A DNA stretch of 64,000 bases from a virus (lineage: Duplodnaviria > Caudoviricetes). Shown in pieces: positions 22,744 through 46,791 of the stretch (position 1 is its first letter; the number at the start of each line of letters is the position of its first letter). The stretch is taken from positions 1 through 64,000 of the IMG/VR virus record IMGVR_UViG_3300022893_000001; one strand, 5' to 3'. The notes beneath the pieces were generated by a model. That model was not told the origin of the DNA. It searched no databases and saw only the letters and a list, made by a program, of their open reading frames with translations. The translations under genes and the position numbers were made by a program.

Positions 22744-25700
22744 ATGGCAGCGCCATCCCTAGCAGCCCCCAAAGGCTTCGATCTCGACGGAGCACGCCGG
22801 GAGGGTTACAACGATACCGAGATCGCGGACTACCTCGCCGGCTCGCGGGGCTTCGATATTGCCGGGGCGCGCAAAGAAGGCTATTCCGATCAAGAGATAA
22901 TCGGGCACCTCAACAAGCCGAAAGCGATGGCGTCGACCGTGCCTGGGGCCGAGCGCACCGGCACGCCTGGTCTGCAGAAGACGGCGGCGATCCCGCCCGA
23001 GCTCGGCGGGCCTCCCACGCCCAGGCAGGAACCTCAGCAGCCTACCCCGATGGCACCGCCCGACTATTCGGCGGGCGATCTCTACCAATCCAATCAGCCT
23101 ACCGACCTTGGTTTCGAGCCAACCGTGGACCCCTTCTCAACAGGTCCAGCGCGCGCGCCTCGTCCTCAGATGACCCAGCAAGCCGCTGGCGACGAGATGA
23201 CCCGCGTGGCGCGCGGGGACGTGGGAGCATCGCCCTATCCGAAGCCAGGCCGCTTGCCGATCCTCGGCGGGCGAGTGGCCCCCAAGCCTTTCTACCAGCT
23301 TGAGAAGCCCGGTGTCGCGGGCATCCCCGGCACCGAGCGCACCGGGTTGCCCGGCGTCCAATCAGTGGCCCAACCGCGAGTGGAGTATGACCCGCTCGGC
23401 GCGCGCCCAGACGCGCAGTATTTAGCCAAGCTGCACGCCGGTATCCCGGTCGAATCCGACGAGATCCCCAGTGCCCAGTCGATGCCAGGCGCGGCCGGGC
23501 TGATCTCGAAAGTCGGTTCACGCAGCGCACTGGGAGTGGTTAAATCGCTGGGCACCTCCGGGAGACTTCTCGGCGACACGCCCGGCCAGCGCGGCATGAT
23601 CGGGCTGAAACAAGCGGGCACAGCCATCGAGGACGTCACGCAACTGATGCTCGATCAGATCCCGCCGCCTACCCTGGAAGAATCCCACCTGATCGGCAGC
23701 AAGAACTTCGTTGAGGATCCGAACCAGCTTCGCAATCCCTATTACATGGCGAACCTGGGAGCCAATGCCGGCGGCTCGATGGTGGCCTTCATGCTGCCGG
23801 AAATTGCGCTCTTCCGAGGCGCTGCCTTGGCGGCTACCGGCGCGCGCGCTGGCGTGCTCTCTTCGATTGCCGAGACGATGGCGAACTCGGCAGAGGTCTA
23901 CCAACAGGCCAAAGACGCGGGCATGAGCGAGATCGAAGCCGCTGACCTGTTCCGCAAGAACATCCCCCTCGATTTCCCGATCACCTACGGGATGAACCGG
24001 CTGGGGATCTTCAACGACAAGCTCAAGAGCAGAACGGCTCGCGCGGTTCTCAGCCCGGTCACCGAAGCCGCGCAGGAAGTGGGTCAGGCGGTTCCCCAGA
24101 ACTACTTACTCAAGCAGCCGCTCTTCAAGGGATGGGAAGAGAACGCCCTCGGCTCCGCGTTCGGCGGTCCAGTCGGGGCGATGATGAGCCCGGTCGACAC
24201 TTTGATGGGCGCACCGCCCACGCCGCACCACGACACCACGCAGTACCAACCTGGCCCGCAGGGCCCGCAAACCTCCAGGTACCCGCTGTTAAGCCAGGCT
24301 GGAACAGCGGCCCCCGTCGTTCCGCCCTCGGCCCCGCACCACGAGCTTCCCCCGGACCCATACGAAGGGCCCCTCGACGCCTACGGCGGCGGCGCGGCCC
24401 GAGAAGCGCCAGCGGTCCCCACGGTGTCTCCCTTCCCACGGGTTCAGACTCCCCCGCCTGGCGTCGACCTGGGCCATGTGCGGCCGCTCGACAAGGAAGG
24501 GGAGAAGCCGCCAGAGCAGACTGCGCCGCCGGAACAGAAGCAACCTCCTCCGCCGCCCCCGAATGTGGACGCGGTCTACGAGGACGCGAAGACCTTCGCC
24601 GCGGATCTTCCGGAGCTCGGCGTAGGCGCGATCCGCCGGCAGTTCGGCGTCACCAAGGACGATGCCCGCGTGATCCTCGACCGCATGGTCGCAGACGGGC
24701 TCTTCGCGCAGAAGGAATTGAAGGGCGGCGGCACCTCGTTCGTCAACCTCGCCTGGCAGCGCGGCCAGGCCGGCAAGGGGATGGTGACCAAGGGCAAAGG
24801 CGTTGAGGAAGCTGTCTCCGAGTTCCTTCCGCCGGATGAGGAAGAGGAGGCTCCGCCGCCAGGCCAGCAAGCCCCGCCCCCCGGCCAGCCGCCGCCCTCA
24901 TCGCTTGAAGATCAACGAAAGGAGGGGGAAGAACAGAGACAACAAGAGCCGCCAGCATTGGGGCAGGCACCTCCGCCTGCCACAGCGGCCCCTCCCCAGA
25001 TCGACGCGGGCAAGGTCACCTCGATTGAGGAGCGCCCCGAGCGGCCACCCGAGCCCCGGCTCGCCGAAGACGTATTCGAGATGGATCCGAATACCATCGA
25101 GGCCGATCCGGTTCGCTTCCAGTTCAAACGGGATACCGGCGGCAAGGCTGGAGTAGGCGATGAACTGAAAGACCCAGACGTCCCCTGGAACCGCCGGATG
25201 GCCGGCACAATCACCGTCTGGAAAGACCCGGCAGACGGCAAGACCTACGTCGTCAACGGGCACCACCGGCTTGAGAAAGCCCAGCGCATGGGCGTTCCCA
25301 GTATCAAAGTGCAGTATTCCACTGCAAAAACGGCCCAGGAAGCCAGGGCCGAGGGCGCGCTCGACAACATCGCCGAGGGCAGAGGCACCGCCATCGACGC
25401 GGCCAAGTTCCTGCGCGACACCGGCATCACTCCCGAGGAAGCCAAGGGGCGCGGCGTTCACCTCAAAGGCGAAAAGGCCAGGCAGGGTACCGCGCTCGCC
25501 AAGCTGCCAGACAGGCTCTTCGAACAGATCCTGAGCGGAGACTTGAACGTCGAACGGGCCACGATTATCGGCGAAGGGCTCACCAATCCGGACGACATGC
25601 TGGCAGTGGCAGAGGCCGGCTCGAAGATGAACGACGCCCAGTTGCGGGAACTCATCCGGCGTCAGAGCGGCCGAGCTCGAACCGAAGAGACTCAGGTTTC

Positions 25701-28700
25701 CCTGTTCGGGGAAGACGTCATCTCGAAGAGTCTGATCCGCGAAGAGGCCACGCTGTCGGAAGCCATCCGGAAGCAACTCTCGAACGAGAAGCGGCTGTTC
25801 GCCACAGTCGGAACCAAGGGCGCAGCGACGACGCTTGAACAGGGCGGGAACGTCATCGCTACCGACAAGAACCGCGCCATCGCCGATGCCGCCGCGCAGG
25901 CTCTGGAGATCTATGACCGTCTGAGTCTACAGACTGGTCCGGTTGCCGATGCCTTAGCCGCCGGGGCCAAGGAGATGGCCGGCGGCGCGAACTTTGCTAC
26001 CGTCAGGGAGAACACTTATGCCGCAGTCCGAAACGCCGTACAGGAAGCTATCGGCGGAGGAAAAGAATCGCGTGCTGGACAGCCTCAGGCGCAAGATCGA
26101 GGCCGGGACGCTGGTACCGGAGAACGAGCACCCGCCGGCCCAGCAAAAGCAGCCCCCGCAAAAGTAGAGGAGATCGGCAAGGTCACCTCGGTCGAGCAGG
26201 GCGAGACATTCACCGCGCGGATGCAAGCCGCCGAGACTGCCGATGAGGGGCGGAAGATCCTGGGCGAGGCCGAGAAGGCCATTGGTAGCCTGCAGCAGGA
26301 CATTGGCGTCACGCCTACAGTTGGACAGGTCGAGCCGAATTACTTTGTAGGGCTCCACGTTCTTAACGACAAAACCATCAAGAAGGCGGTCAAAGAGGCC
26401 CAGGCCAAAGATCCGGCCAAGGCGGCGCAACTCGAAGCCATGATGCGCGACGCCTTCCACGCTCGCGAGAAGGAATGGCCGCGCCTCCAGGGCATCGAGG
26501 ACCAGAGGGAAGCGGATCGCTACGAGGAATTCAAGGCCCAGCGAGGACCGAAACTCCCGAAGGAACTGACCAAAGCCGCCCCGCGCTACGGCGCATTCGA
26601 ACTCCAGTTTGAGTCCGATGTTGACAAGGCTGCGTACATCACAGCCCAGGCGAAACCCTCCAAGCGGGATGCCGACTATCTCAAATTTGTGATGGACGCC
26701 ACCGGCAAGTCGGAGGCCGAGGTCCGGAAGGCAGGAGCCGCCATCCGCGCCTCCCTCAAGACGATAGCGAAGGGCGCTGATCCCGCCGATGGCCCGCTTG
26801 AGGTTCCTCTTCATGTCCAGGTGAAACCGGGCGAGGACTTGGGCCGCGTCTCCTCCGTAGAGGCGAAGCCGAAGCAGACCGGCCCCATGAGCCCGCTCGG
26901 CAAGATGGGGCCGGCCAAACCGAAAGCGGCGGTCTACCACGGGGACGTCTCCGACCGGGAAATCACCGAGGAGAATCTCAAGAACGACGTTGAGACGGGC
27001 GTCTGGCGCTTCGCCACCGCGCGCGGGCGCACCGGCAAGGGCCGCACCGGCACGGTCTACACCAACCAGGCGGGGATGCGCGTCCTGCAAAACGTCTTCG
27101 AGATGGAACGGCTTGAGGGCGTCTCGATGGACGACGTCAATGTCGCCAAGCTGCTCACCGCCCTCGACAAGAATCTCAGTCTGAGGGATCTGAGTCCGGA
27201 AGGCCGCGCCGCCCTGAGGGAGTTCAAGAAGAATCTGAACGAGTACCGGCAGCAGCATGGGCCCGGCGCATCCATCAGCTTTGTTGTGGCCGAGCGCGGC
27301 CACGGCATGGGCATCCGCAAGACGATCCGCGAGGAACTGATTCACGGCATTCAGCGCATCTTCGGGATTAACTCCGTGGACACCGTCGAAAACATGCTGC
27401 TGATGCCGGCCTTTGACAAGGCGTGGACGTGGCTGGAAGAAAACGGGTACCCAGATATAGGGGCGATGGACGCTCTCGACGAGATTACCGCCAAGGTGCT
27501 CGCCGGGGAGGATGTAGGGCTTACCCTGGAAGAGCAGCTTACGGTAGCCAAAGCCTACCGAAAGGCGCTGATCGAAGCACACGGTAACGACGTAGTCACA
27601 CTGTTCCGATACGTCAAAGCCGGCGAGGTGAAGGAGACATTCCGTGGCACAGAGACGCGAAAAGAAGATGGTGGACGCGCCGCCCCAGTTCAGCAAGAAA
27701 GCGGTTTCGAACTTCAACGAGGCGCAGTTAGCGGCCGAGGCGGCACGGTTAGCCGGGGAGGACGAGGAGAAGGCGTTCGAGAACGCCTTACGCTCTCGGT
27801 GGAGCCAGTCGGGCGAATCACCCGATTCCTCCGAAGACTCCACGGCGGGTCGCAAGCCCAGTTAGTTCAGGCGTCCAACGGCAAATACTACGTCGTCAAG
27901 TTCGCCGACAACCCGCAGGACGCGCGGGTTCCCGTCAACGAACTGATAGCCGGGCGTCTCTTCCACGCGCTTGGCTTCAAGACCCCGCTGCCGGTGGTTC
28001 TCGAATATGGCGGGGACCAGGATCTGTCCTACGTCTGGCACGGCGGGAAGGAACTGAAGATCAAGGCCGGCCCGGCAATCGCCACCGAGTTCGTCGTCGA
28101 CCCCGAGCGCGGCGGCAAGGTCTATGACGAACTGCGGGACAGCGACTTCTCCAAGGTGACCAACGTTTCCGACCTGGTCAATGCCCTGGTGGTCGACAAG
28201 TGGCTCGCCAACTGGGACTCGCGCCAGGCAGTCTTCCACGCAGACAGTTCCGGCGAAGGCTATGTCGTCACGCTGATCGATCACGGCTTCGTCTTCAACG
28301 GCGATAGTTGGCAGTTCAAGACCAACGCTTGGTCCGGTGTGTACCACCAGCAGAACGTCTACGATGGCGTCCGGTCGATGGACGACTTTGCCCCCACCAT
28401 CGAAAAGATCCGGAAGCTCGATCCGGATTACATCCGTAGCATGTTTGAGGCGGTCCCGGAAGAGTACAAGGAATTCGCCGATGACGAAGACCGGGGGCAT
28501 CTGGCCGATGAAGTAATCAAACGCCGCGCCAAGCTCGAAGACTTCATCCTCGAACTCACTAACGTCAAATTCGGCCAGTTCACATTCAACAACTGGGAAG
28601 GTCACAAGGCGCGGAGGCCCGGCCAGGGGTTGCTGTTCTCGCGCAAGAAGAACACGATTCAGGGCGAGCAGAGTCAACTTGGGTTGTTCGACCTGGCCGC

Positions 28701-31700
28701 GACAGCCGCGACAGGCCAGGTCCAGCATGTAACCGCCGAGGGGCTCACCAAGCCCGAAGCGCGCGAGACGGTCGCCTGGCTTGAGAAGGCCGATCTGCCT
28801 GGCTCGGTCGAAGCGGCCAAGGTTCTCGAAGCGGCTGTAGCGGATGCGCCGGCCAAGGAACCCGTCAAGTTTGAGACGACCGAGGCTCCTGCCGAGACGA
28901 AGGAGCCCGCTGCCGAGACGGGGAAACGGGGCGAGCAGACCCGCATCGAGATGGAGGAGCAGCCCGACAACGAGGCGATCCTCCAGGGCGAGCGCCTCAC
29001 CGCGGCGTTTGCCGGGGAGCTCTCGCCGGAAGAGAAGCGCCGGAAGCTGAAGCGGGCCGAGGTCGAACAGACCGGGCTCTTCGAGACGAGCGAGGAGAGG
29101 GTAGAGCGTCCTGGGCTGCTGTTCCGCCGGGACGACCGGAAGACCACCAGCGCCCGGGCCATCAAATACCTGGCAGACCTGGCGAGCGGCAAGGTCAAAC
29201 CCAACTGGTCCCATGCCTACGAGGCGGTGACCCGGCTCATCACCTCGGCCAAGTCCAAGGAATACAACTCGCCCGATCTGCTCGTCACCGGCCAGGGCTT
29301 CGAGAAGAAAGCAGACGGCACCTGGAAGAACCCGGAAGCCATCAAGCGGGCCGTCAACCTGATCAAGAACTATGCGAACTTCGACGGCAAGAAGTACGCG
29401 AACGACGAGGCGCGCATCGAGGCTTTCGTAGAGCACGTCAAAGAGAACCTGATCTGGCTGTACAAGAAGTACGAGGCGCAGCACGGCGATCTGATCAAGC
29501 GGGCCAAGCAGTGGTACGACGGAGGCCGGAAGCTCGCCGAACGCTACGCCAAGGTGGCCGGCGTCGAACCGCACCAGATGAGCGCGGTGATCGCGGTCCT
29601 CTCGCCGAAGAAGGATTGGTTTCAGAACATAGACCTGGCGCGGCGCATCGCCGATTTCTGGGCGATCCGCCACAAAGTGAAGTGGAACGCCCCGGCGATG
29701 GAAAAGGGCTACGCCAAGATGCTCAAGTCCAAAGCCGAGATGGACGAGGACACTCGGAAGAAGACGGAGAAGCGGAACAAGGTCAGGCGGGCCAGGCTCA
29801 ACGCCAAGAATTCCAGAGGGAGGAAGAAGGCTAGGGAAACGGGCGTGGCCTTCGAGGCGGCGGTCTTCGAAGCCGAGGTTTTCACCCCGAGCCGCGACCT
29901 GCAGAAAGCGTACGCGCGCATCCGAGGGAAGGCGTTCGCCGAGATCAAGCGGCCCTATGACCGCGCGGTCTGGATGCGAATGTGGGACGAGGGCCACCAC
30001 AGCCGGAACTACAACGTCCTGACGCCCGAGGGCGAGTCGCAGGGCGTCGCAACCTCGACCGCCGAGAAGACCAAGGGCAAACCCCTGACGTCGGTCTGGC
30101 AGAGTTACGACGCCGTCACCAAGGCGCTCTCGATCCTCGATGACGGCTCGATGAAGAACATCAGCGCCAAGCTGGGCAAGCAGCACAAGGTGCGGTCCTT
30201 CTACAACAACATCGTCGATCCGGACTCGCCGAACCTCCACGTCACCATCGACACCCACGCGGTGGCGGCGGGCTTCCTGCGGCCGCTCGGCCAGTGGGAC
30301 AAGGAGGTCAAGGACAATCTCAACGCGCCCTCCAAGGTGAGCGGCGAATCGCCCACCTACGGTCTGGTGGCGCGGGCCTACCGGGAAGCGGCGGCGGAGA
30401 TGGGACTCCTGCCGCGCGAATTCCAGTCCATCACCTGGGAAGCGGTGCGCGGGCTGTTCTCGCCGTCGTTCAAAAAGGGTAATAAAACTGTCATAAAGAA
30501 CATCTGGATCGATGTTGCGCAAGGTAAAATTACAGCAGCAGCAGCGAGAGAGAAGATCTATGGCCTTGCAGGAAAAATCGATAGACCGGCATGGGCTGGA
30601 GCAATACCGGGACGAGTTTCCGATACTCGAACAGATGTTGGACGACAAGCTGCCGCTGACACGAAGGCAGTACCTGGGCATGGCGCACCCCGGAGCGGAT
30701 CCGAACGTGCCGCTGGACATGGAACTGGAGGCGGAACTGCCGCCGCCGTTCGTGCACCCGAGTCTAAAAGAGGAACTGAACCCCGACGAGGAGTAGGGAC
30801 CGTCCAGCGGGCCCTCGGCTTTGGTCCCGGCGGCGTCTGGGGCACTCCCAACGACTGGGTCGAACGCTCGGCCTTCAAATTCGCCACCAAACCCAGTCAG
30901 ACCGGCTCGGTCTATGCGAACCGATCCGCGATGAATCTCATCGGGTATGTCATCAGGGACACCAAGACCACCGGGGCTTCTTTCGGTTCTCAGACAATCC
31001 AGATTCTCCTCGACGCCCTCGACGGCAAGCCCGTCCCCGCTGCCAAGTGGGAGAAGCTCAACCTCAACGACCTGTCTGCCAATGCGCACAAGGAACTGGC
31101 GAAGTTCCGCGCACAGATCGTCAACTGGAAGAACACGATCCAGGCCGCTGATCCCCAGGCTTCGCTGAACTTCGTGCTGGCGTCTCCAGCCGAGACGATG
31201 GAGTACGTCAAGGAGACGGCGAGCGAAGAGTACATACACGGGGCCCAGCGCCACTCCCCGGTTGGTATGCCGGCCCTCGTGGGGATGATGAAGACCGCGC
31301 CCTTCCAGAGCGGCTGGAAGCGTCTGATCCAGATTGGCTACGACGTCTCGATTGACCCGGCTGACAGCATACAGGACATCCATAGGAAAGCCATCGAGGC
31401 TTTCAACGAAGTCACCGCCAAGGTGCTCAGTGGGCAGGAGCTCGGTCTGTCGCTGGCCGAGCGCATCGAGATCGCCAAAGCCTACCGGAAGGCGCTCATC
31501 AACTTCCACGGCAGCGACACCGTCCTCCTCCGGTTCAAGTACGTCAAAGCGGGGGCGGTGAGGGACGCCTTCTTTGATAAGCAGCCTGCGGCGACCGCCG
31601 CGCCCGTGCCCGCTGCCGCTACGACGCCGCCGTCGAACTTCCTCAGTTGGGTGCGCCAGGCGGCGGGGATTGCGCCCCGAATTGAGGAGCGCCAGGCACC

Positions 31701-34700
31701 GGCCCGGCGGATCGAGGAACGTGAACAGACCGAGACGGCCCCGGATGTAATGAAGGCTCGCCGGCCCCCGCAGCAGCCGCAGCAGCCCGCTACCCAGGCG
31801 GTCACCACCACCACGCAGCCGCCGGCTACCGGAGCCGCCGCGCCCGCGATGTCCCGCTCGGCGCGCTTCGACCAACTCAACGAGACGGTAGACCAGACCG
31901 GCAAGGAGCGGGACAAGACCCGGTACGAGAAGTTCAAGGAGTCGCTGACGACCTTCGGCCACTCGATGACGCGCCAGTTCGTCGACATCCCGGCCGGCGC
32001 GACCTACGCCAGTTTCAAGCAGAAGCTGAACTTCGTATCGAAGGCGCAGGGCACCGCCATCCACAAAGCCGCCCAGGCCATCATCGACCAACTCGAGAAG
32101 CTCTCCCCGGCGCAGTACGACGCTTTCGTTCGCGTCATCTTCTACGACGATCTCTCCGCGCGCGTCAAACAGCAGATCGCGGAGGGTACGCCTGTCCTCG
32201 ACAAGGACATTGGCTGGGGCATCAAGGACTCACACGAGCTCTACGCCATGCGGGCCGAGGCGCGCGACCGGGTCCGGAACGATCCACAGATCGTCGAAGC
32301 CCTCCGCCAGCGCAAGGCCATGTGGGCGAAGATCAAGCCCGAGTACATCGCCGCCATGAAGAAGGCGGGCGTCGATATCGAGAAAGCCCTCTCGCGCAAA
32401 GACTACTTCCGCCATCGTGTGATCGAGCATCTCCAAGCCCAGGAGTTACCTGGGAACGAGGGGACCGGAGCCGGCCAGCGGTTCAAGCTGCCCACCGGCC
32501 GATCCTGGCTCAAGAAGGCGCACGTCAACGCCAAGGCGTACTCCATCGACTACATTCGCGCCGAGTTCGAAGTACTCAGCGAGATGATGTACGACACCGA
32601 GAGGGCCGGATTCATCGGCTGGTTGAAGCACGACAGCGGCCACAACATCGCCCCGCGGCTAATGCGCCAGGCGGCGGCGCATAACAAGAAAGTCATCATG
32701 CCGACCTTCGTCAAGATGGCGAAGTATTACAACAAGAAGAATCCCCGCGCGACCCCGGTGACCGCCGAGATGATGTACCAGCGCGTCATGAAGTCGCGCC
32801 CGAATGACCCAGGTTGGCGCACGCGCGTCACCAAGCGGATGGCCGGCGCGGATTACATCGGGAGCCTGGAGAAGGCATACAATACGTTCGCTCTCAAGAC
32901 CCACCAGATCTATACGGCGGATAAGCGGGACCACTTCTTCTTTAAGCCCACGATCTCAGACGCGCTCGCCAATGCCATCGAGGCGGCGGGCATGGGTACG
33001 GTCCTCGCCAATCAGATCCAGAAGCTCAAGGTCAAGGGCAAGCGCCGGGGGCAGATGGTCCTGCCGCGTGAAGTCATCGAAACGATGAAAGAGTTCATGC
33101 AGCCCCCGTCCGACAAGACGAGTAAGTGGACCGAGAAGCTCTGGACGAAGCCTATGGGCTGGTGGAAGCAGTCTAAGCTGATCCATCCCGTCTCGGTGGT
33201 CAAGTACAACCTCAGGAACCTGTCGGGCGATCTGGAGCGCGTGGTGATCGCCAACCCGAAAGCACTCAAGATGGTTGGGCGGTCCACAATGGAGATCCGC
33301 CAGTTCCTCAAGACCGGCAAGCCGCCGTCGAAGGAGTTCGAGGCATGGTGGCGGCGCGGCGGCATGGACGCAAACCTCCAGGTAGCCGAGATCGGGGACG
33401 TCAACAAACTCAGAAAGCTCAAGCACCTCAGAGAGGACTTCCGCTCGACCAGCACGGCGGATAAGGGAATAGACTACGCCGTCGATAAGTGGGAGCGCGT
33501 CTGGGGCAAAACGCGACAGTTGACCGATTTCCGCGAAGGGATTTTGCGCTACGCCACGTTCCTCGAATATCAACGCCAGATCGCCGCGAATGCCGGCGGG
33601 CGTCCGGATAACTTTGGAGCCTCGCTCCGCGACGAAGTCATGGCGATCCGGAACCATGATGACCGGGCCTACAAACTATCGAATGATCTGATGCTCGCCT
33701 ACGACGAGGTGTCTGCGCTCGGCCAGAGACTCCGCCGGAACTGGGTTCCCTTCTGGAGCTTCCAAGAAAAGAACGCCCAGGCATACAAGCGGCTCGTGGG
33801 CAACGCCGTCGCGGATGGCAGAACCTCGGCGGCGATAGGCTACGCCGCACTCGGAGGCGCTGCCGTGGCGGCGCGCGTGGGTGTCTATACAGCCGCCAAG
33901 GTGGGCAAGACGCTCACACTGGCGCTGGCGCTCAAGACCCTGAGCGAACTGTGGAACAACTACGTCTTCGACGATGAGGAAGACGACCTCCCGGAGAACG
34001 TCAGGAAGAGTTCGCATATCATCCTGGGCCGGGACGCAAATGGCAAAGTGCTGGCCTTCACGCGCGTGGGCACCTCGGACGATCTGCTCGAATGGGGCGG
34101 GCTCGAAGCCGCGCCGTACTACGTGCGCGAGTACCTCAACGGCCGGATGAGCTACGAGGATCTGGCTAAGGAGATCGCCTTCCGACCCTTCGGCGTCCCG
34201 ATTCCGCTCAAGCCGGCGTTCAACAAGATCGCCCAGTCGATCACGCCGTTCATCAAGACGACCGCTGAACTGGCGAGCGGGCGCGCCTGGTTCCCGAACT
34301 TCTTTGAACAGCGCGAGATTCGCAGCCGGGGCGAGTACATCGCCCGCGAGCTCGGTGTGACCGCCCTCTACAAAGCCGCGTGGAGTAAGCCGCAGCCCAA
34401 GGTCTTCTCGGTCGACAAGCTGCTCGACCTCTTCGTATATCGGTACGATCCCGGCGAAACACACTACAACGCTTTCAAATACGATAAGGTCGCAAAATGG
34501 GGGGCCGAACATGGCGAAGATCCCGGCGGCGGGCTCTCGCAGAAGAAAGCGGCCCAGGCGCTCTATGACATCCGCATGGCTATCCGGTATGACGACGAGC
34601 GGGCCCAGGCGGCGGCGCTCATCGCCTACAAAGAAGTCGGCGGCACCAGGGCGAATCTCAAAGAATCGATTGATCGCCTGCACCCGCTCGGGAGCCTCAA

Positions 34701-34866
34701 GAAATCCCTGCGCGACGAGTACAAGAAGTCTCTGAGCCCCGCCGAAGCGATCCAACTGCAGAAGGCGGAACTATTCTGGGTTGAGAACTTCCAGTCCAAG
34801 TGGAAGGCGCTCGACCGGGCCGCTGCGGCCGCGAAGCTGCCCGATAAGAAAGTGAGGAAGAAGTAA
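22744..34866 (+). CDS. Giant polyvalent virion-associated protein (4040 aa): ParB-like, zincin-like x2, HipA-like kinase, HhH-glycosylase-like, LPD38-like
   Basis: 12.1-kb open frame; YVVNGHHR (25246-25269); REELIHG (27328) and SEEYIHG (31222); GGSQA/YVVKF/NELIA/DKWLANWDSR/LIDHG (about 27800-28290); WY..SP..W..N..K..SF..NI..VTIDTHA..QSITW (about 29500-30440); DDLPENVRKSSHIILGRD near C-terminus. Confidence 0.85.
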   Translation: MAAPSLAAPKGFDLDGARREGYNDTEIADYLAGSRGFDIAGARKEGYSDQEIIGHLNKPKAMASTVPGAERTGTPGLQKTAAIPPELGGPPTPRQEPQQPTPMAPPDYSAGDLYQSNQPTDLGFEPTVDPFSTGPARAPRPQMTQQAAGDEMTRVARGDVGASPYPKPGRLPILGGRVAPKPFYQLEKPGVAGIPGTERTGLPGVQSVAQPRVEYDPLGARPDAQYLAKLHAGIPVESDEIPSAQSMPGAAGLISKVGSRSALGVVKSLGTSGRLLGDTPGQRGMIGLKQAGTAIEDVTQLMLDQIPPPTLEESHLIGSKNFVEDPNQLRNPYYMANLGANAGGSMVAFMLPEIALFRGAALAATGARAGVLSSIAETMANSAEVYQQAKDAGMSEIEAADLFRKNIPLDFPITYGMNRLGIFNDKLKSRTARAVLSPVTEAAQEVGQAVPQNYLLKQPLFKGWEENALGSAFGGPVGAMMSPVDTLMGAPPTPHHDTTQYQPGPQGPQTSRYPLLSQAGTAAPVVPPSAPHHELPPDPYEGPLDAYGGGAAREAPAVPTVSPFPRVQTPPPGVDLGHVRPLDKEGEKPPEQTAPPEQKQPPPPPPNVDAVYEDAKTFAADLPELGVGAIRRQFGVTKDDARVILDRMVADGLFAQKELKGGGTSFVNLAWQRGQAGKGMVTKGKGVEEAVSEFLPPDEEEEAPPPGQQAPPPGQPPPSSLEDQRKEGEEQRQQEPPALGQAPPPATAAPPQIDAGKVTSIEERPERPPEPRLAEDVFEMDPNTIEADPVRFQFKRDTGGKAGVGDELKDPDVPWNRRMAGTITVWKDPADGKTYVVNGHHRLEKAQRMGVPSIKVQYSTAKTAQEARAEGALDNIAEGRGTAIDAAKFLRDTGITPEEAKGRGVHLKGEKARQGTALAKLPDRLFEQILSGDLNVERATIIGEGLTNPDDMLAVAEAGSKMNDAQLRELIRRQSGRARTEETQVSLFGEDVISKSLIREEATLSEAIRKQLSNEKRLFATVGTKGAATTLEQGGNVIATDKNRAIADAAAQALEIYDRLSLQTGPVADALAAGAKEMAGGANFATVRENTYAAVRNAVQEAIGGGKESRAGQPQAQDRGRDAGTGERAPAGPAKAAPAKVEEIGKVTSVEQGETFTARMQAAETADEGRKILGEAEKAIGSLQQDIGVTPTVGQVEPNYFVGLHVLNDKTIKKAVKEAQAKDPAKAAQLEAMMRDAFHAREKEWPRLQGIEDQREADRYEEFKAQRGPKLPKELTKAAPRYGAFELQFESDVDKAAYITAQAKPSKRDADYLKFVMDATGKSEAEVRKAGAAIRASLKTIAKGADPADGPLEVPLHVQVKPGEDLGRVSSVEAKPKQTGPMSPLGKMGPAKPKAAVYHGDVSDREITEENLKNDVETGVWRFATARGRTGKGRTGTVYTNQAGMRVLQNVFEMERLEGVSMDDVNVAKLLTALDKNLSLRDLSPEGRAALREFKKNLNEYRQQHGPGASISFVVAERGHGMGIRKTIREELIHGIQRIFGINSVDTVENMLLMPAFDKAWTWLEENGYPDIGAMDALDEITAKVLAGEDVGLTLEEQLTVAKAYRKALIEAHGNDVVTLFRYVKAGEVKETFRGTETRKEDGGRAAPVQQESGFELQRGAVSGRGGTVSRGGRGEGVRERLTLSVEPVGRITRFLRRLHGGSQAQLVQASNGKYYVVKFADNPQDARVPVNELIAGRLFHALGFKTPLPVVLEYGGDQDLSYVWHGGKELKIKAGPAIATEFVVDPERGGKVYDELRDSDFSKVTNVSDLVNALVVDKWLANWDSRQAVFHADSSGEGYVVTLIDHGFVFNGDSWQFKTNAWSGVYHQQNVYDGVRSMDDFAPTIEKIRKLDPDYIRSMFEAVPEEYKEFADDEDRGHLADEVIKRRAKLEDFILELTNVKFGQFTFNNWEGHKARRPGQGLLFSRKKNTIQGEQSQLGLFDLAATAATGQVQHVTAEGLTKPEARETVAWLEKADLPGSVEAAKVLEAAVADAPAKEPVKFETTEAPAETKEPAAETGKRGEQTRIEMEEQPDNEAILQGERLTAAFAGELSPEEKRRKLKRAEVEQTGLFETSEERVERPGLLFRRDDRKTTSARAIKYLADLASGKVKPNWSHAYEAVTRLITSAKSKEYNSPDLLVTGQGFEKKADGTWKNPEAIKRAVNLIKNYANFDGKKYANDEARIEAFVEHVKENLIWLYKKYEAQHGDLIKRAKQWYDGGRKLAERYAKVAGVEPHQMSAVIAVLSPKKDWFQNIDLARRIADFWAIRHKVKWNAPAMEKGYAKMLKSKAEMDEDTRKKTEKRNKVRRARLNAKNSRGRKKARETGVAFEAAVFEAEVFTPSRDLQKAYARIRGKAFAEIKRPYDRAVWMRMWDEGHHSRNYNVLTPEGESQGVATSTAEKTKGKPLTSVWQSYDAVTKALSILDDGSMKNISAKLGKQHKVRSFYNNIVDPDSPNLHVTIDTHAVAAGFLRPLGQWDKEVKDNLNAPSKVSGESPTYGLVARAYREAAAEMGLLPREFQSITWEAVRGLFSPSFKKGNKTVIKNIWIDVAQGKITAAAAREKIYGLAGKIDRPAWAGAIPGRVSDTRTDVGRQAAADTKAVPGHGAPRSGSERAAGHGTGGGTAAAVRAPESKRGTEPRRGVGTVQRALGFGPGGVWGTPNDWVERSAFKFATKPSQTGSVYANRSAMNLIGYVIRDTKTTGASFGSQTIQILLDALDGKPVPAAKWEKLNLNDLSANAHKELAKFRAQIVNWKNTIQAADPQASLNFVLASPAETMEYVKETASEEYIHGAQRHSPVGMPALVGMMKTAPFQSGWKRLIQIGYDVSIDPADSIQDIHRKAIEAFNEVTAKVLSGQELGLSLAERIEIAKAYRKALINFHGSDTVLLRFKYVKAGAVRDAFFDKQPAATAAPVPAAATTPPSNFLSWVRQAAGIAPRIEERQAPARRIEEREQTETAPDVMKARRPPQQPQQPATQAVTTTTQPPATGAAAPAMSRSARFDQLNETVDQTGKERDKTRYEKFKESLTTFGHSMTRQFVDIPAGATYASFKQKLNFVSKAQGTAIHKAAQAIIDQLEKLSPAQYDAFVRVIFYDDLSARVKQQIAEGTPVLDKDIGWGIKDSHELYAMRAEARDRVRNDPQIVEALRQRKAMWAKIKPEYIAAMKKAGVDIEKALSRKDYFRHRVIEHLQAQELPGNEGTGAGQRFKLPTGRSWLKKAHVNAKAYSIDYIRAEFEVLSEMMYDTERAGFIGWLKHDSGHNIAPRLMRQAAAHNKKVIMPTFVKMAKYYNKKNPRATPVTAEMMYQRVMKSRPNDPGWRTRVTKRMAGADYIGSLEKAYNTFALKTHQIYTADKRDHFFFKPTISDALANAIEAAGMGTVLANQIQKLKVKGKRRGQMVLPREVIETMKEFMQPPSDKTSKWTEKLWTKPMGWWKQSKLIHPVSVVKYNLRNLSGDLERVVIANPKALKMVGRSTMEIRQFLKTGKPPSKEFEAWWRRGGMDANLQVAEIGDVNKLRKLKHLREDFRSTSTADKGIDYAVDKWERVWGKTRQLTDFREGILRYATFLEYQRQIAANAGGRPDNFGASLRDEVMAIRNHDDRAYKLSNDLMLAYDEVSALGQRLRRNWVPFWSFQEKNAQAYKRLVGNAVADGRTSAAIGYAALGGAAVAARVGVYTAAKVGKTLTLALALKTLSELWNNYVFDDEEDDLPENVRKSSHIILGRDANGKVLAFTRVGTSDDLLEWGGLEAAPYYVREYLNGRMSYEDLAKEIAFRPFGVPIPLKPAFNKIAQSITPFIKTTAELASGRAWFPNFFEQREIRSRGEYIARELGVTALYKAAWSKPQPKVFSVDKLLDLFVYRYDPGETHYNAFKYDKVAKWGAEHGEDPGGGLSQKKAAQALYDIRMAIRYDDERAQAAALIAYKEVGGTRANLKESIDRLHPLGSLKKSLRDEYKKSLSPAEAIQLQKAELFWVENFQSKWKALDRAAAAAKLPDKKVRKK
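26018..26167 (+). CDS. Nested gene 1 (49 aa, +1 frame in giant gene): MPQSETPYRKLSAEEKNRVLDSLRRKIEAGTLVPENEHPPAQQKQPPQK
   Basis: AGGGAG at 26005-26010, 7 nt before ATG; amphipathic helix; G/C-ending codons move to this frame; below the ORF-track length cutoff. Confidence 0.6.
   Translation: MPQSETPYRKLSAEEKNRVLDSLRRKIEAGTLVPENEHPPAQQKQPPQK
27644..27865 (+). CDS. Nested gene 2 (73 aa, +1 frame) directly upstream of and overlapping the kinase domain
   Basis: AAGGAG at 27631-27636, 7 nt before GTG; helical FSKKAVSNFNEAQLAAEAARLAGEDEEKAFENALRSRW; host frame reads as G/R-rich filler. Confidence 0.65.
   Translation: MAQRREKKMVDAPPQFSKKAVSNFNEAQLAAEAARLAGEDEEKAFENALRSRWSQSGESPDSSEDSTAGRKPS
30560..30796 (+). 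CDS. Nested gene 3 (78 aa, +1 frame) right after the glycosylase-like domain
   Basis: GAGAGAG 7 nt before ATG 30560; globular acidic PILEQMLDDKLPLTRRQYLGMAHP..DMELEAELPPPF; host frame is G/A/R filler; AT-rich patch with TAAAAT upstream. Confidence 0.7.
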   Translation: MALQEKSIDRHGLEQYRDEFPILEQMLDDKLPLTRRQYLGMAHPGADPNVPLDMELEAELPPPFVHPSLKEELNPDEE

Positions 34867-39612: not shown

Positions 39613-39654
39613 TTGCGCAAAGCCCCGTTTCACTGTATTCTGGCTTTGCGCAAA
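39613..39654 (+). promoter_or_regulatory. Sigma70-type promoter with two TTGCGCAA palindromes
   Basis: TTGCGC (39613-39618)-N17-TATTCT (39636-39641); palindromes at 39613-39620 and 39645-39654 (TTTGCGCAAA). Confidence 0.65.
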
Positions 39655-39658
39655 AGCG

Positions 39659-39877
39659 ATGCAGAAGAACGGTTTCGGCAACTTCCCTGAACGCTCCGAG
39701 ATCCTCAGAAACCATCCAGGACTCCTCAGCCGCGTAGCCCGTGGGCTGGGGATGTCCCCGGCGGCGGTATCGAGGACGTTCCACGGGATCACGCGCGAAA
39801 CCAATCCCACGATTGTCGAAGCCCTGCAACGGGCCATCGCCGAAGCGCCAGAACTGAAAGGAACAGAGGTGAAGTAA
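39659..39877 (+). CDS. Small HTH (Cro-like) regulator
   Basis: LLSRVARGLGMSPAAVSRTFHG helix-turn-helix; first gene of operon. Confidence 0.75.
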   Translation: MQKNGFGNFPERSEILRNHPGLLSRVARGLGMSPAAVSRTFHGITRETNPTIVEALQRAIAEAPELKGTEVK

Positions 39878-41187
39878 TGGCAGACCAGGAACAAGCCCTC
39901 GTCCGGGGCTCAGGCCACGTCACGCGCACCGTGATGGGAGAAGAGACGGAATACCAGGCGGTCGATATCGCCGGCACGGGCCAGGATGCCTATGCCACGG
40001 CGCTCATCCAGTCGCGCTACGTGATGGCGGTCAAACGGCCACGCAGCGAGGAACAGTTTCGTAGCGAACTGATGAAGCGCGTATTGGATAAGGATTTCGC
40101 CTCAATCTGCGAGTACTCGCGCCCAGTCGGGAGAGAGAAGAACGCGCAGGGCAAGTGGGTCGAGAAGATTGCCAAGGGCCCGACGATCCACCTGTTGAGG
40201 ACCGCGCTGCGCCTGTTCAAAAACAACTCCTCGGAACCCACGGTCATCACTGAGACTCCGGAGCTCCGAGTCGTTGCCATAACTATATCGGACTACGAAT
40301 CGAATTTTCACGTTGTTCGCACGTTCACCTTAGAGAAGCGGATCGAGAAGCGGGCCGTTCAGGACCGCCAGACTGGCGAGTGGGGCCCGCCGCCAGGCCG
40401 GCAGATCCTCGGCGAGCGCGTCAATACGGACGGCGAACGGGTCTACATCTGCCGCACGACGCTCGATGAGTTGCGGAAAGAAGACTTGCGCCTGACCGCC
40501 TTGACCAAGCGCGCCGCCGCCGAAGAGTTCCTCCCCAAGCACATCATTCTGGCTGCGCTGGCGAAGGCTGTCCAGACCACCCAGGAACATGACACCAAAG
40601 ATCCGGCCGGCGCGAAGAACCGGCTGATCGACGCCTTCGCCGGTCTGAATATCATGGCGGTCGATCTTGAGCAGTACATCGGCCATCCGCTCGACCGGCT
40701 GTCGACCGACGAGCTCGCGAACCTCCGGAGCGTTTGGTCCCGCATCTCGAATGAGGAGGCGACCTGGGAAGATTGCCTGGCCGAGCGCAATCCCACCGGC
40801 ACCAGCGAGGACGCCGAGAAGGTCAAGCAGGACAAGCTCGCCGCGCTGCGCGGTCAAACCGTAACCCACACAGAAGAAGCGAAGGGTAAAAGCGCACCTG
40901 GGGGGCCGAACGAAAAGGCCGTTCGCCTGAACGCGGAACTCGACGAATCAACCAAAGTTGGAACGGTGAAAACAGTGGACGCCCCCGCTCCGGATAAACA
41001 GTTCATCACGTCCGATCAGGCGCAGGAGTTCGCTCAGGTCATCCACGAGAACCATCTCGACGACGAGCAGATCCAGAAGCTCGTGAAAGCCGGCGGGGCC
41101 GATAGGTACGACCGCATGAGGTCCGATCTCTTCGAAGTCGTCTTGAAGATGGCGAAGGCCACCAAGGGCAAGGACAAGAAGAAATGA
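39877..41187 (+). CDS. Putative single-strand annealing/recombination protein
   Basis: IQSRYVMAVKRPR..EYSRPVG..GPTIHL pattern recalled from phage annealase-like families; acidic/basic C-terminal tail. Confidence 0.5.
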   Translation: MADQEQALVRGSGHVTRTVMGEETEYQAVDIAGTGQDAYATALIQSRYVMAVKRPRSEEQFRSELMKRVLDKDFASICEYSRPVGREKNAQGKWVEKIAKGPTIHLLRTALRLFKNNSSEPTVITETPELRVVAITISDYESNFHVVRTFTLEKRIEKRAVQDRQTGEWGPPPGRQILGERVNTDGERVYICRTTLDELRKEDLRLTALTKRAAAEEFLPKHIILAALAKAVQTTQEHDTKDPAGAKNRLIDAFAGLNIMAVDLEQYIGHPLDRLSTDELANLRSVWSRISNEEATWEDCLAERNPTGTSEDAEKVKQDKLAALRGQTVTHTEEAKGKSAPGGPNEKAVRLNAELDESTKVGTVKTVDAPAPDKQFITSDQAQEFAQVIHENHLDDEQIQKLVKAGGADRYDRMRSDLFEVVLKMAKATKGKDKKK

Positions 41188-46761: not shown

Positions 46762-46791
46762 TTGCGCAAAGGGAATTGCTATTGATAGACT
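46762..46791 (+). promoter_or_regulatory. Promoter for replication genes with TTGCGCAA palindrome on the -35
   Basis: TTGCGC (46762-46767)-N18-TAGACT (46786-46791) with TGn extension; A-tracts upstream. Confidence 0.55.

What the first reader, a model, noticed from the sequence alone, without database searches (positions are those of the whole stretch)
25920..30800. Three hidden +1-frame genes at domain boundaries of the giant virion protein: candidate nested effector-immunity system
Seen: inside the 12-kb gene, three short ORFs (26018-26167, 27644-27865, 30560-30796) are all in the +1 frame. Each has a purine-rich RBS 7 nt upstream (AGGGAG, AAGGAG, GAGAGAG). In each, G/C-ending codons move from the host frame to the nested frame, and the host frame becomes G/R/A/P filler. 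Each is preceded by about 100 bp of A/T-ending synonymous codons, as expected for an embedded promoter. They sit after the ParB-like domain, just before the kinase, and just after the glycosylase-like domain. Internal control: ORF2's RBS lies in codons VKETF of zincin repeat 1; the equivalent VRDAF in repeat 2 has no RBS and no coherent +1 ORF. Established: polymorphic toxins and HipA kinases are neutralised by small adjacent proteins. Inference: toxic domain plus cognate inhibitor were captured as in-frame cassettes, so the phage can make and package a multi-effector protein without harming itself. I know of no description of this arrangement, but cannot check the literature.
Basis: partly seen in the sequence, partly recalled or inferred. 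Interest (0 to 1): 0.95.

Follow-up and report, generated by a model that had tools for sequence, protein, structure and literature searches.

The report
Small genes nested in giant phage gene
Three short genes lie one base out of frame inside the linkers of a 4,040-codon phage virion-protein gene; all three look like real, unannotated genes, but the idea that they are antidotes to neighbouring toxic domains is untested for one and contradicted for another.

Summary
The three +1-frame ORFs exist, and each has an SD-like motif 7 nt before its start.

- **Coding signal:** these are the only strong places in the giant gene where codon usage and GC3 periodicity switch to the +1 frame.
- **ORF3 (78 aa):** it belongs to a small-protein family found 50-250 nt after the DUF7178 module in 86 of 121 related loci, in the +1 frame in 82. 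The family occurs separated, overlapped or embedded, like Rz/Rz1 spanin genes. It folds confidently (pLDDT 83.5) and its frame is better conserved than the host frame.
- **ORF2 (73 aa):** conserved in four phages with GAAGGAG-N7-GTG. Two of them lack the kinase, so it is not a kinase antitoxin.
- **ORF1 (49 aa):** supported by one homologue only.
- **DUF7178:** its model resembles HhH DNA glycosylases (Z up to 9.1). A very acidic partner or inhibitor role for ORF3 is therefore plausible but unproven.

This scan has noted the same phenomenon before on other phage DNA. I found no paper describing it for polyvalent proteins. I class it as a new variant of embedded phage genes.

The parts
22744..34866 (+). 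Giant polyvalent virion-protein gene (4040 aa), the host frame
   Evidence: ORF list. Pfam finds DUF7178 only. Relatives carry ART-PolyVal, InPase and LPD domains. A tail-fibre-like gene lies downstream.
26005..26010 (+). SD-like AGGGAG, 7 nt before the ORF1 ATG
   Evidence: Sequence. The homologue L002 has AAGGAG at the same spacing within a heavily diverged block.
26018..26167 (+). Nested ORF1, 49 aa, +1 frame, pI 9.3
   Evidence: Codon-model switch at 26038-26166. L002 keeps the ATG, SD and open frame. Over the diverged block the nested-frame alignment scores z 4.6 against 1.5 for the host frame. The start region is unstructured, in the 0.4th percentile. No further homologues were found.
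27631..27636 (+). SD AAGGAG, 7 nt before the ORF2 GTG
   Evidence: GAAGGAG-N7-GTG is present in all four genomes, including a different host-protein context in G002.
27644..27865 (+). Nested ORF2, 73 aa, +1 frame, GTG start
   Evidence: Codon switch. Substitutions against L002 fall 21/8/10 on host codon positions 1/2/3, compared with 246/196/500 gene-wide (P 2e-4). Homologues sit in the +1 frame of the G001 and G002 giant genes. Nested identity exceeds host identity in all 6 pairs.
27826..28485 (+). HipA-like kinase module of the host protein (absent from G001 and G002)
   Evidence: Pfam HipA_2, E 2.6e-4, 20.8 bits, below the 27-bit cut-off. Window residues 1660-2060 have no BLAST match in G001 or G002.
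29140..30588 (+). DUF7178 module of the host protein, with an HhH-glycosylase-like fold
   Evidence: Pfam DUF7178. AF2 model: pLDDT 94.3, pTM 0.91. Most of the top 21 structural matches are HhH-type DNA glycosylases, alongside two DUF2419 queuine-salvage entries (Z 9.1-5.5).
30546..30552 (+). SD-like GAGAGAG, 7 nt before the ORF3 ATG
   Evidence: Sequence. Family-wide, 71 of 86 loci have an SD plus start in the nested frame, against 2 of 86 in the host frame.
30560..30796 (+). Nested ORF3, 78 aa, +1 frame, pI 4.5, a member of a widespread small-protein family
   Evidence: Strongest codon switch. 12 called small proteins match it in a 1.8-billion-protein library. The HMM hits 86 of 121 DUF7178 loci. 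AF2 model: pLDDT 83.5. In L002 a +1 stop 9 codons upstream rules out the 30512 ATG.

Best explanation
The three ORFs are separate small protein-coding genes that share DNA with inter-domain linkers of a giant polyvalent virion-protein gene.

How they are most likely made: ribosomes start internally, at each gene's own Shine-Dalgarno plus ATG or GTG, in a locally unstructured stretch of the same late mRNA. This step is inferred, not shown.

In these stretches the small gene is the constrained reading. The host-frame G/R/A/P-rich 'linker' is largely the by-product of reading the small gene one base early.

For ORF3 the history can be read from relatives. A small gene normally sits right behind the gene for the DUF7178 (HhH-glycosylase-like) module, either separate from it or overlapping its last codons. 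In many lineages, this one included, the upstream gene has read through it and fused with downstream modules, so the small gene became embedded. Stops were purged from the host frame.

ORF2 is a second such family. ORF1 is probably a third.

Function is not shown. From strict synteny, and from ORF3's strong negative charge next to a DNA-glycosylase-like fold, the most likely role is a partner of the adjacent module made in cis with it, either a chaperone or adaptor or an inhibitor. This is inferred.
For: **In the window**
- The codon-usage and GC3 switch to the +1 frame occurs in the giant gene only at the three ORFs.
- SD-like motifs lie 7 nt upstream of each start.
- The 60-nt folding energy around the three starts is in the least-structured 0.4%, 4.2% and 2.0% of windows in the gene.

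**ORF3**
- The HMM hits 86 of 121 DUF7178 loci. The hit is always just downstream of the module and is +1 in 82.
- Separated, overlapped and embedded layouts all occur, with own SD plus ATG where the host gene has already ended.
- Non-embedded members carry 2.5-3.6 stops in the frame that the host uses in embedded members.
- Across 33 fully embedded loci (19 clusters at 60% identity), nested-frame identity is .36 against .24 for the host frame, and it is higher in 92% of pairs.
- An SD plus start is present in the nested frame in 71 of 86 loci, against 2 of 86 in the host frame.
- The AF2 model has pLDDT 83.5 and pTM 0.69.

**ORF2**
- Four genomes carry it, all with GAAGGAG-N7-GTG, and the nested frame is always the better conserved.
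- Substitutions pile up on the nested third position.

**ORF1**
- The ATG, SD and frame are kept in a block that is only about 55% identical.

**Generality**
- In 61 related host ORFs there are 32 +1 switch segments against 2 in the +2 frame.
Against: There is no direct evidence of translation: no Ribo-seq, proteomics or RNA data.

ORF1 rests on a single homologue, and neither ORF1 nor ORF2 has free-standing relatives.

ORF3's SD (GAGAGAG) is weak.

Many of the 86 loci are related to one another, so the counts are not independent events. My layout classes contain a few misassignments: L081 and L114, and probably L083 and L084, are really of the overlapped type.

Function is inferred from synteny only. 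The ORF3 model has no known-fold match.
Confidence: 0.8

Rival explanations
1. Nested effector-immunity system. Each small protein neutralises the toxic domain encoded next to it, so that the phage can make and package the giant protein safely.
For: ORF3 is tightly linked to the DUF7178 module, and that module has a DNA-glycosylase-like fold. ORF3 is small and very acidic (pI 4.5, net charge -11). From my own knowledge, the phage-encoded glycosylase inhibitors Ugi and p56 are also small and acidic. Making the small protein in cis from the same mRNA would suit a stoichiometric inhibitor.
Against: ORF2 occurs without the kinase in G001 and G002, so the kinase-antitoxin pairing fails. 35 of 121 DUF7178 loci lack a detectable ORF3-like gene, and the cultured phage CRP-738 has DUF7178 without it. 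No toxicity of any domain is known. ORF1 is basic and has no identified enzyme neighbour in Pfam.
Confidence: 0.2
2. Programmed +1 ribosomal frameshifting. Ribosomes translating the giant gene slip into the +1 frame and stop, giving truncated proteins with alternative C-terminal tails. On this reading there are no separate small proteins.
For: The +1 relation to the DUF7178 frame holds in 82 of 86 loci, even where the host gene ends inside the small ORF. In some GC-rich loci the +1 frame is open far upstream.
Against: Family members stand after the host stop, in another frame, or 579 nt away behind an extra domain, each with its own SD plus ATG (L013, L092, L106, L123). SD plus start is conserved in 71 of 86 loci. 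In L002 a +1 stop lies 9 codons before the ORF3 ATG, and in all ORF2 copies one lies 4-5 codons before the GTG. No slippery site was noted, though I did not search for one systematically.
Confidence: 0.04
3. Decaying relics. The +1 ORFs are remnants of once free-standing genes swallowed by gene fusion, still carrying codon bias but no longer expressed or needed. This applies most to ORF1.
For: ORF1 has only one homologue and no family. The fusion history is evident for ORF3.
Against: ORF3 and ORF2 show continuing purifying selection in the nested frame across diverged embedded copies. Starts and SDs are kept. The ORF1 frame, ATG and SD survive about 45% divergence of the surrounding block.
Confidence: 0.08
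4. Mobile in-frame insertion elements that carry an out-of-frame gene, like the ShiLan/HNH insertion in a phage methylase (PMC11855218).
For: ORF2 with its SD appears in two different host-protein contexts. The host reads through without stops, as in ShiLan.
Against: There is no nuclease or other mobility motif in proteins of 49-78 aa (Pfam and PHROGs give nothing). ORF3 holds a fixed position behind DUF7178 in all loci. The mosaic recombination typical of polyvalent genes explains the shuffling.
Confidence: 0.03

Closest known systems
Embedded, overlapped and separated two-component spanin genes (lambda Rz/Rz1, P2, T4; Kongari et al. 2018, PMC6139136)
   Same: A small gene lies wholly inside a larger phage gene. 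In lambda it lies in the +1 frame (my own knowledge; not confirmed in the text I read). It has its own SD and start and is routinely missed by gene callers. The same gene pair occurs in three layouts. The paper proposes that loss of the upstream stop codon is a route to embedding.
   Different: Here the host is a 12-kb multi-domain virion or ejection protein rather than a lysis protein. The small proteins have no lipoprotein or membrane signals. One gene holds three different embedded genes. The ORF3 family spans all three layouts within one family, which the spanin survey did not find for embedded families.
Polyvalent proteins of phages and conjugative elements (Iyer et al. 2017, PMC5512222)
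   Same: A giant multi-domain protein encoded among virion genes. Relatives carry ART-PolyVal, InPase and LPD38 domains.
   Different: That survey does not mention overlapping, nested or frameshifted genes in these proteins: the terms 'overlapping' and 'frameshift' occur 0 times in the text.
Hepatitis B virus polymerase spacer overlapping preS/S (modular evolution of an overlap; review PMC8227390)
   Same: A large multi-domain protein whose flexible spacer is proposed to have arisen by reading across a short pre-existing gene that lay between two modules. Codon usage is used to tell which frame is ancestral.
   Different: That case is an animal virus with a single overlap and a very compact genome. 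Here the host is a dsDNA phage of about 73 kb, where compression is not an obvious driver.
ShiLan insertion with a hidden out-of-frame HNH endonuclease in a phage methylase (PMC11855218)
   Same: A phage gene reads through an internal segment without stops, while another frame of that segment encodes a separate protein with a GTG start.
   Different: That element is a homing endonuclease insertion. The ORFs here are tiny, lack nuclease motifs and sit at fixed module boundaries.
Phage-encoded DNA-glycosylase inhibitors Ugi (PBS1/2) and p56 (phi29); from my own knowledge, not tested
   Same: Small, very acidic phage proteins that act on a DNA glycosylase. ORF3 is 78 aa with pI 4.5 and sits beside a glycosylase-like fold.
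   Different: There is no sequence or fold similarity. Ugi and p56 target host UDG, not a phage domain. Binding by ORF3 is untested.

Membership tests
Embedded overlapping phage gene (Rz1-in-Rz type architecture) | Small ORF entirely inside a larger same-strand ORF, in another frame | tested here: met
   All three ORFs lie in the +1 frame inside 22744-34866.
Embedded overlapping phage gene (Rz1-in-Rz type architecture) | Own ribosome-binding site and start codon, conserved in relatives | tested here: met
   SD 7 nt upstream of each start. ORF2 has GAAGGAG-N7-GTG in 4 of 4 genomes. In the ORF3 family 71 of 86 loci have an SD plus start. ORF1 is kept in L002.
Embedded overlapping phage gene (Rz1-in-Rz type architecture) | Purifying selection on the embedded frame | tested here: met
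   ORF2 substitution pattern, P 2e-4. ORF3 nested identity .36 against host .24. ORF1 z 4.6 against 1.5, from one pair only.
Embedded overlapping phage gene (Rz1-in-Rz type architecture) | Both products actually made | not testable with these tools
Toxin-antitoxin or effector-immunity pair (HipA/HipB-like; polymorphic toxin immunity) | The small gene co-occurs with its toxin domain and is gained or lost with it | tested here: not met
   ORF2 is present in G001 and G002, which lack the kinase. For ORF3 and DUF7178 the link is strong but not obligate: 86 of 121 loci.
Toxin-antitoxin or effector-immunity pair (HipA/HipB-like; polymorphic toxin immunity) | Physical binding and neutralisation of the toxic domain | not testable with these tools
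No bench data exist.
Toxin-antitoxin or effector-immunity pair (HipA/HipB-like; polymorphic toxin immunity) | The antitoxin belongs to a known antitoxin or immunity family (for example the HTH of HipB) | tested here: inconclusive
   No Pfam or PHROGs family matches any of the three peptides.
Polyvalent protein (Iyer et al. 2017) | Many unrelated effector-type domains in one polypeptide, encoded among virion or late genes | tested here: met
   The protein has 4040 aa with DUF7178 and a HipA-like segment. Homologues carry ART-PolyVal, InPase and LPD38. One source names a relative 'conjugative element/phage-associated large polyvalent protein'. A tail-fibre gene lies next to it.
HhH-GPD-type DNA glycosylase superfamily (for the DUF7178 module) | Shared fold with HhH glycosylases | tested here: inconclusive
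   Most of the top 21 rows are HhH glycosylases and the top three include two DUF2419 entries: Tm1821 Z 9.1 with 187 of 209 residues aligned, DUF2419 Z 8.5, then AGOG, EndoIII, Mag1 and MutY at Z 5.5-7.1. The family pattern is consistent, but Z is below the level at which helical folds are safe. Foldseek and the sequence profile found nothing.
HhH-GPD-type DNA glycosylase superfamily (for the DUF7178 module) | Catalytic Asp/Lys and HhH motif in place; glycosylase activity | not tested
   An invariant T-x-D-T-H and other invariant residues are listed, but they were not mapped onto the glycosylase active site.
Programmed ribosomal frameshift product | No independent start; slippery site; fusion of the two frames | tested here: not met
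   Free-standing family members have their own SD plus ATG. +1 stops lie just upstream of the starts. Slippery sites were not systematically searched.

The most novel reading that the evidence does not exclude
Giant injected polyvalent proteins carry, inside their own linkers, genes for small partner proteins that cap or chaperone individual effector modules. ORF3 would be an acidic, DNA-mimic-like cap for the HhH-glycosylase-like DUF7178 module. It would be made in fixed proportion from the same mRNA and released, or left behind, when the protein is packaged or ejected. That would make this a general, unannotated layer of regulation of phage 'warhead' proteins.
Probability: 0.2. Interest if true: 0.85.

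Novelty: new variant of a known kind. Interest (0 to 1): 0.6.

Why it matters
Gene callers do not report these genes. A GenBank phage (OP947163) has an ORF3-like gene hidden inside a CDS annotated 'methyltransferase', and PHROGs has no family for any of the three. Whole families of conserved small phage proteins are therefore missing from catalogues.

They sit in the genes for giant virion-borne multi-effector proteins, whose assembly, packaging and control are not understood. A partner protein encoded in the linker would be a direct handle on that problem.

The ORF3 family also gives an unusually clear natural series, from separated through overlapped to embedded. The series shows how a large gene can grow by reading across a small one. 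In that direction the linker is the new frame, which is the reverse of the usual overprinting story.

Tried and rejected
**Searches that found nothing**
- Searches of viral contigs with each peptide alone.
- Word-based protein searches for ORF2 and for the L002 copy of ORF1.
- tblastn of ORF3 and P0098 against GenBank phages.
- The ESM-Atlas feature search for ORF2 gave no usable hit.

- The ORF3-family alignment was too diverse for pattern scans. I used the conserved DUF7178 C-terminus instead.
- Complex prediction (DUF7178 module with ORF3 family) was tried eight times. It was unreachable and then declared unavailable, so no binding test exists.

**ORF1**
- Host-frame searches downstream of ORF1 in viral and metagenome contigs gave only partial matches. 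None of them has an ORF1-like peptide.

**Structure searches**
- The ORF3 model had no match with Foldseek against PDB or BFVD, or with VIA-wide. In the Atlas only an unnamed 52-aa viral cluster matched (TM .55/.78).
- The DUF7178 profile gave nothing against PDB sequences.

**Candidates rejected**
- A weak fourth +1 signal at 24904-24993 comes from an E/Q/K-rich host stretch without a credible ORF.
- The internal promoter or operator idea for ORF3 is not supported. There is no sigma-70-like match. TTGCGCAA occurs 4 times against 1.4 expected, and three copies are at likely regulatory sites elsewhere, so the intragenic copy may be chance.

Full report
**What is in the window.** The window is part of a 72.9-kb IMG/VR virus record with 62% G+C. 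A single open frame runs 22744-34866 (4040 aa). It lies among virion genes, and the next large gene matches tail-fibre families. Pfam recognises only DUF7178 (aa 2455-2569) and a sub-threshold HipA_2 kinase segment (E 2.6e-4). Homologues of 2,300-4,600 aa carry DUF7178 with ART-PolyVal, InPase and LPD domains, and one source calls a relative a 'large polyvalent protein'. The host gene is therefore a polyvalent virion protein in the sense of Iyer et al. 2017 (PMC5512222).

**The observation.** The three ORFs exist and are all +1 to the host frame. AGGGAG, AAGGAG and GAGAGAG each end 7 nt before the start codon.

- ORF length means little here. The +1 frame of this GC-rich gene has more than 15 stop-free stretches of 77 codons or more.
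- The coding signal is what is not chance. Gene-wide GC at codon positions 1/2/3 is .65/.45/.79. At the three ORFs host GC3 drops to .25-.5 and the nested third position rises to .72-.84.
- A codon model trained on other genes of the window finds strong +1-over-host segments in the giant gene at 26038-26166, 27634-27852 and 30526-30810 only. It finds none in the long, well-supported genes of the window; its other hits lie in short or doubtful ORFs.
- Other low-complexity linkers of the same gene keep host-type GC3.
- The 60 nt around each start are among the least structured in the gene, at the 0.4%, 4.2% and 2.0% percentiles. This is what an internal translation start needs.
- The claimed 100 bp of A/T-ending codons upstream is clear only for ORF3, and no sigma-70-like promoter precedes any ORF.

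**ORF3.** A close homologue (P0001 = L002, mosaic, 84% identical overall) is identical across the ORF3 region. It carries a +1 stop 9 codons before ATG 30560, which fixes that start. Distant giant genes (L003-L005, about 35-46% identical in DUF7178) show the same +1 codon switch right after DUF7178. Their peptides share the motif P-L-T-R-E-x-Y-L-x-x-A-Y-P...E-L-E-A-x-L-P.

An exhaustive phmmer search found 12 small proteins of 53-90 aa, called by gene finders mostly at contig ends. In those with DNA available, the DUF7178 frame runs through them.

Using the conserved DUF7178 C-terminus I collected 116 loci from viral contigs and bacterial genomes.

- An HMM of the small family hits 86 of 121 loci, always 50-250 nt (once 579 nt) after the module. 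It is in the +1 frame in 82, +2 in 3, and in frame after a stop in 1.
- Three layouts occur:
  - About 35 are fully embedded in a host frame that continues for 300 nt up to more than 3 kb.
  - About 29 are embedded in a low-complexity host tail that stops 35-150 nt after the small stop. In the two loci I read (L039, L023) the next gene's ATG overlaps that host stop.
  - About 18 overlap only the last host codons. There the host's conserved A-G-G-I codons supply GGAGG, followed by the ATG.
  - Four stand free behind the host stop or behind an extra domain, each with its own SD plus ATG.
- Non-embedded members have 2.5-3.6 stops in the frame that the host uses elsewhere, and embedded ones have none. 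Both frames are therefore maintained.
- On the same nucleotides, nested-frame identity is .36 against .24 for the host frame across 33 embedded loci in 19 clusters, and it is higher in 92% of pairs.
- An SD plus start is present in the nested frame in 71 of 86 loci, against 2 of 86 in the host frame.
- With a 50-sequence alignment the protein folds as a small five-helix unit (pLDDT 83.5, pTM 0.69) with no known-fold match.
- It is very acidic: pI 4.5, net charge -11.

**ORF2.** Against L002, substitutions fall 21/8/10 on host codon positions 1/2/3, where the rest of the gene shows 246/196/500 (P 2e-4). This means they accumulate on the nested third position. Two 74-kb relatives (G001, G002) carry ORF2 homologues (54% and 47% identical) in the +1 frame of their giant genes. 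All four copies have GAAGGAG-N7-GTG, and the nested frame is better conserved in all six pairs. G001 and G002 have no kinase, and G002 has no 'zincin' repeat before ORF2. In both, ORF2 sits directly before the DUF7178 module. ORF2 is therefore not a kinase-linked antitoxin.

**ORF1.** Only L002 is informative. In a block about 55% identical and with several indels (all multiples of three), the ATG, an SD (AAGGAG) and the open frame are kept. The codon switch is present there too. The nested-frame alignment scores z 4.6, against 1.5 for the host frame. No other homologue was found. It is probably a gene, but this is the weakest case.

**Generality.** In 61 related host ORFs (323 kb) there are 32 +1 switch segments and 2 in +2. 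They include other peptide families about 800 nt behind DUF7178 in loci that lack the ORF3 type. Earlier follow-ups in this scan reported the same kind of nested +1 genes in giant virion genes of other genomes. Those are unchecked notes. I did not use them as evidence.

**Mechanism and function.**

- Shown: dual coding, selection on the nested frames, conserved translation signals and the layout series.
- Inferred: SD-led internal initiation on the late mRNA.
- Also inferred: for ORF3 the small gene is the older frame and the host linker the newer one. Two points support this. The small gene's codon usage is closer to the genome's, the criterion reviewed in PMC8227390. Free-standing relatives also exist.
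- The route by loss of the upstream stop is the one proposed for embedded spanins (PMC6139136).

The DUF7178 module folds with high confidence (pLDDT 94.3). Its best structural matches are almost all HhH-type DNA glycosylases and the related queuine-salvage DUF2419 (Z 9.1-5.5). Z is moderate, so this shows fold-level resemblance only. An acidic small partner beside such a module could be a chaperone or adaptor, or an inhibitor.

**Literature.** The polyvalent-protein survey does not mention overlapping or nested genes. No paper mentions DUF7178. Published analogues are Rz/Rz1 and other embedded spanins, the hidden out-of-frame HNH in a phage methylase, and the HBV polymerase spacer over S.

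**Verdict.** The three are real nested genes with confidence in the order ORF3 > ORF2 > ORF1. The immunity reading is unproven for ORF3, contradicted for ORF2 and the kinase, and open for ORF1. I class this as a new variant of a known kind, and this scan has seen it before on other DNA.

Noticed in passing
window 39613-39620, 39646-39653, 46762-46769, 30515-30522: TTGCGCAA(A) occurs 4 times against 1.4 expected. Two copies flank a TATTCT box just before ATG 39660, the start of a 72-aa ORF (39660-39878) whose text looks HTH-like. This is probably the operator of a small regulator. The copy inside the giant gene may be chance.
   Followed up: partly
L012, L016, L019 and L073, L095, L124 (about 800 nt after the DUF7178 end): Two further families of +1-frame peptides with a codon-bias switch, found in giant genes that lack the ORF3-type gene.
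   Followed up: no
L003:5774-5917 and L003:6680-6892; G001 giant-gene nt 3481-3651: Additional +1 nested ORFs with a codon switch in distant polyvalent genes. One has AAGGAG 5 nt before its ATG. They are not similar to ORF1, ORF2 or ORF3.
   Followed up: no
L147 (GenBank OP947163, Rhodobacteraceae phage LS06-2018-MD07), about nt 4021-4225: An unannotated ORF3-family gene in the +1 frame inside a giant CDS annotated 'methyltransferase'.
   Followed up: partly
window 27862-32091 and 25954-27855, minus strand: Antisense ORFs of 1409 and 633 aa opposite the giant gene. They are most likely stop-poor shadows of a GC-rich coding strand, not genes.
   Followed up: no
window 22744-34866 compared with L002:88-11994: The two giant genes are a mosaic of 100%-identical and 36-70%-identical blocks, which indicates recent recombination between module variants.
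   Followed up: partly
L039 and L023 (host stop / next gene start): Where the DUF7178 gene ends 35 nt after the small gene, its TGA overlaps the ATG of the next gene (TGATG). This suggests translational coupling through the overlapped tail.
   Followed up: no
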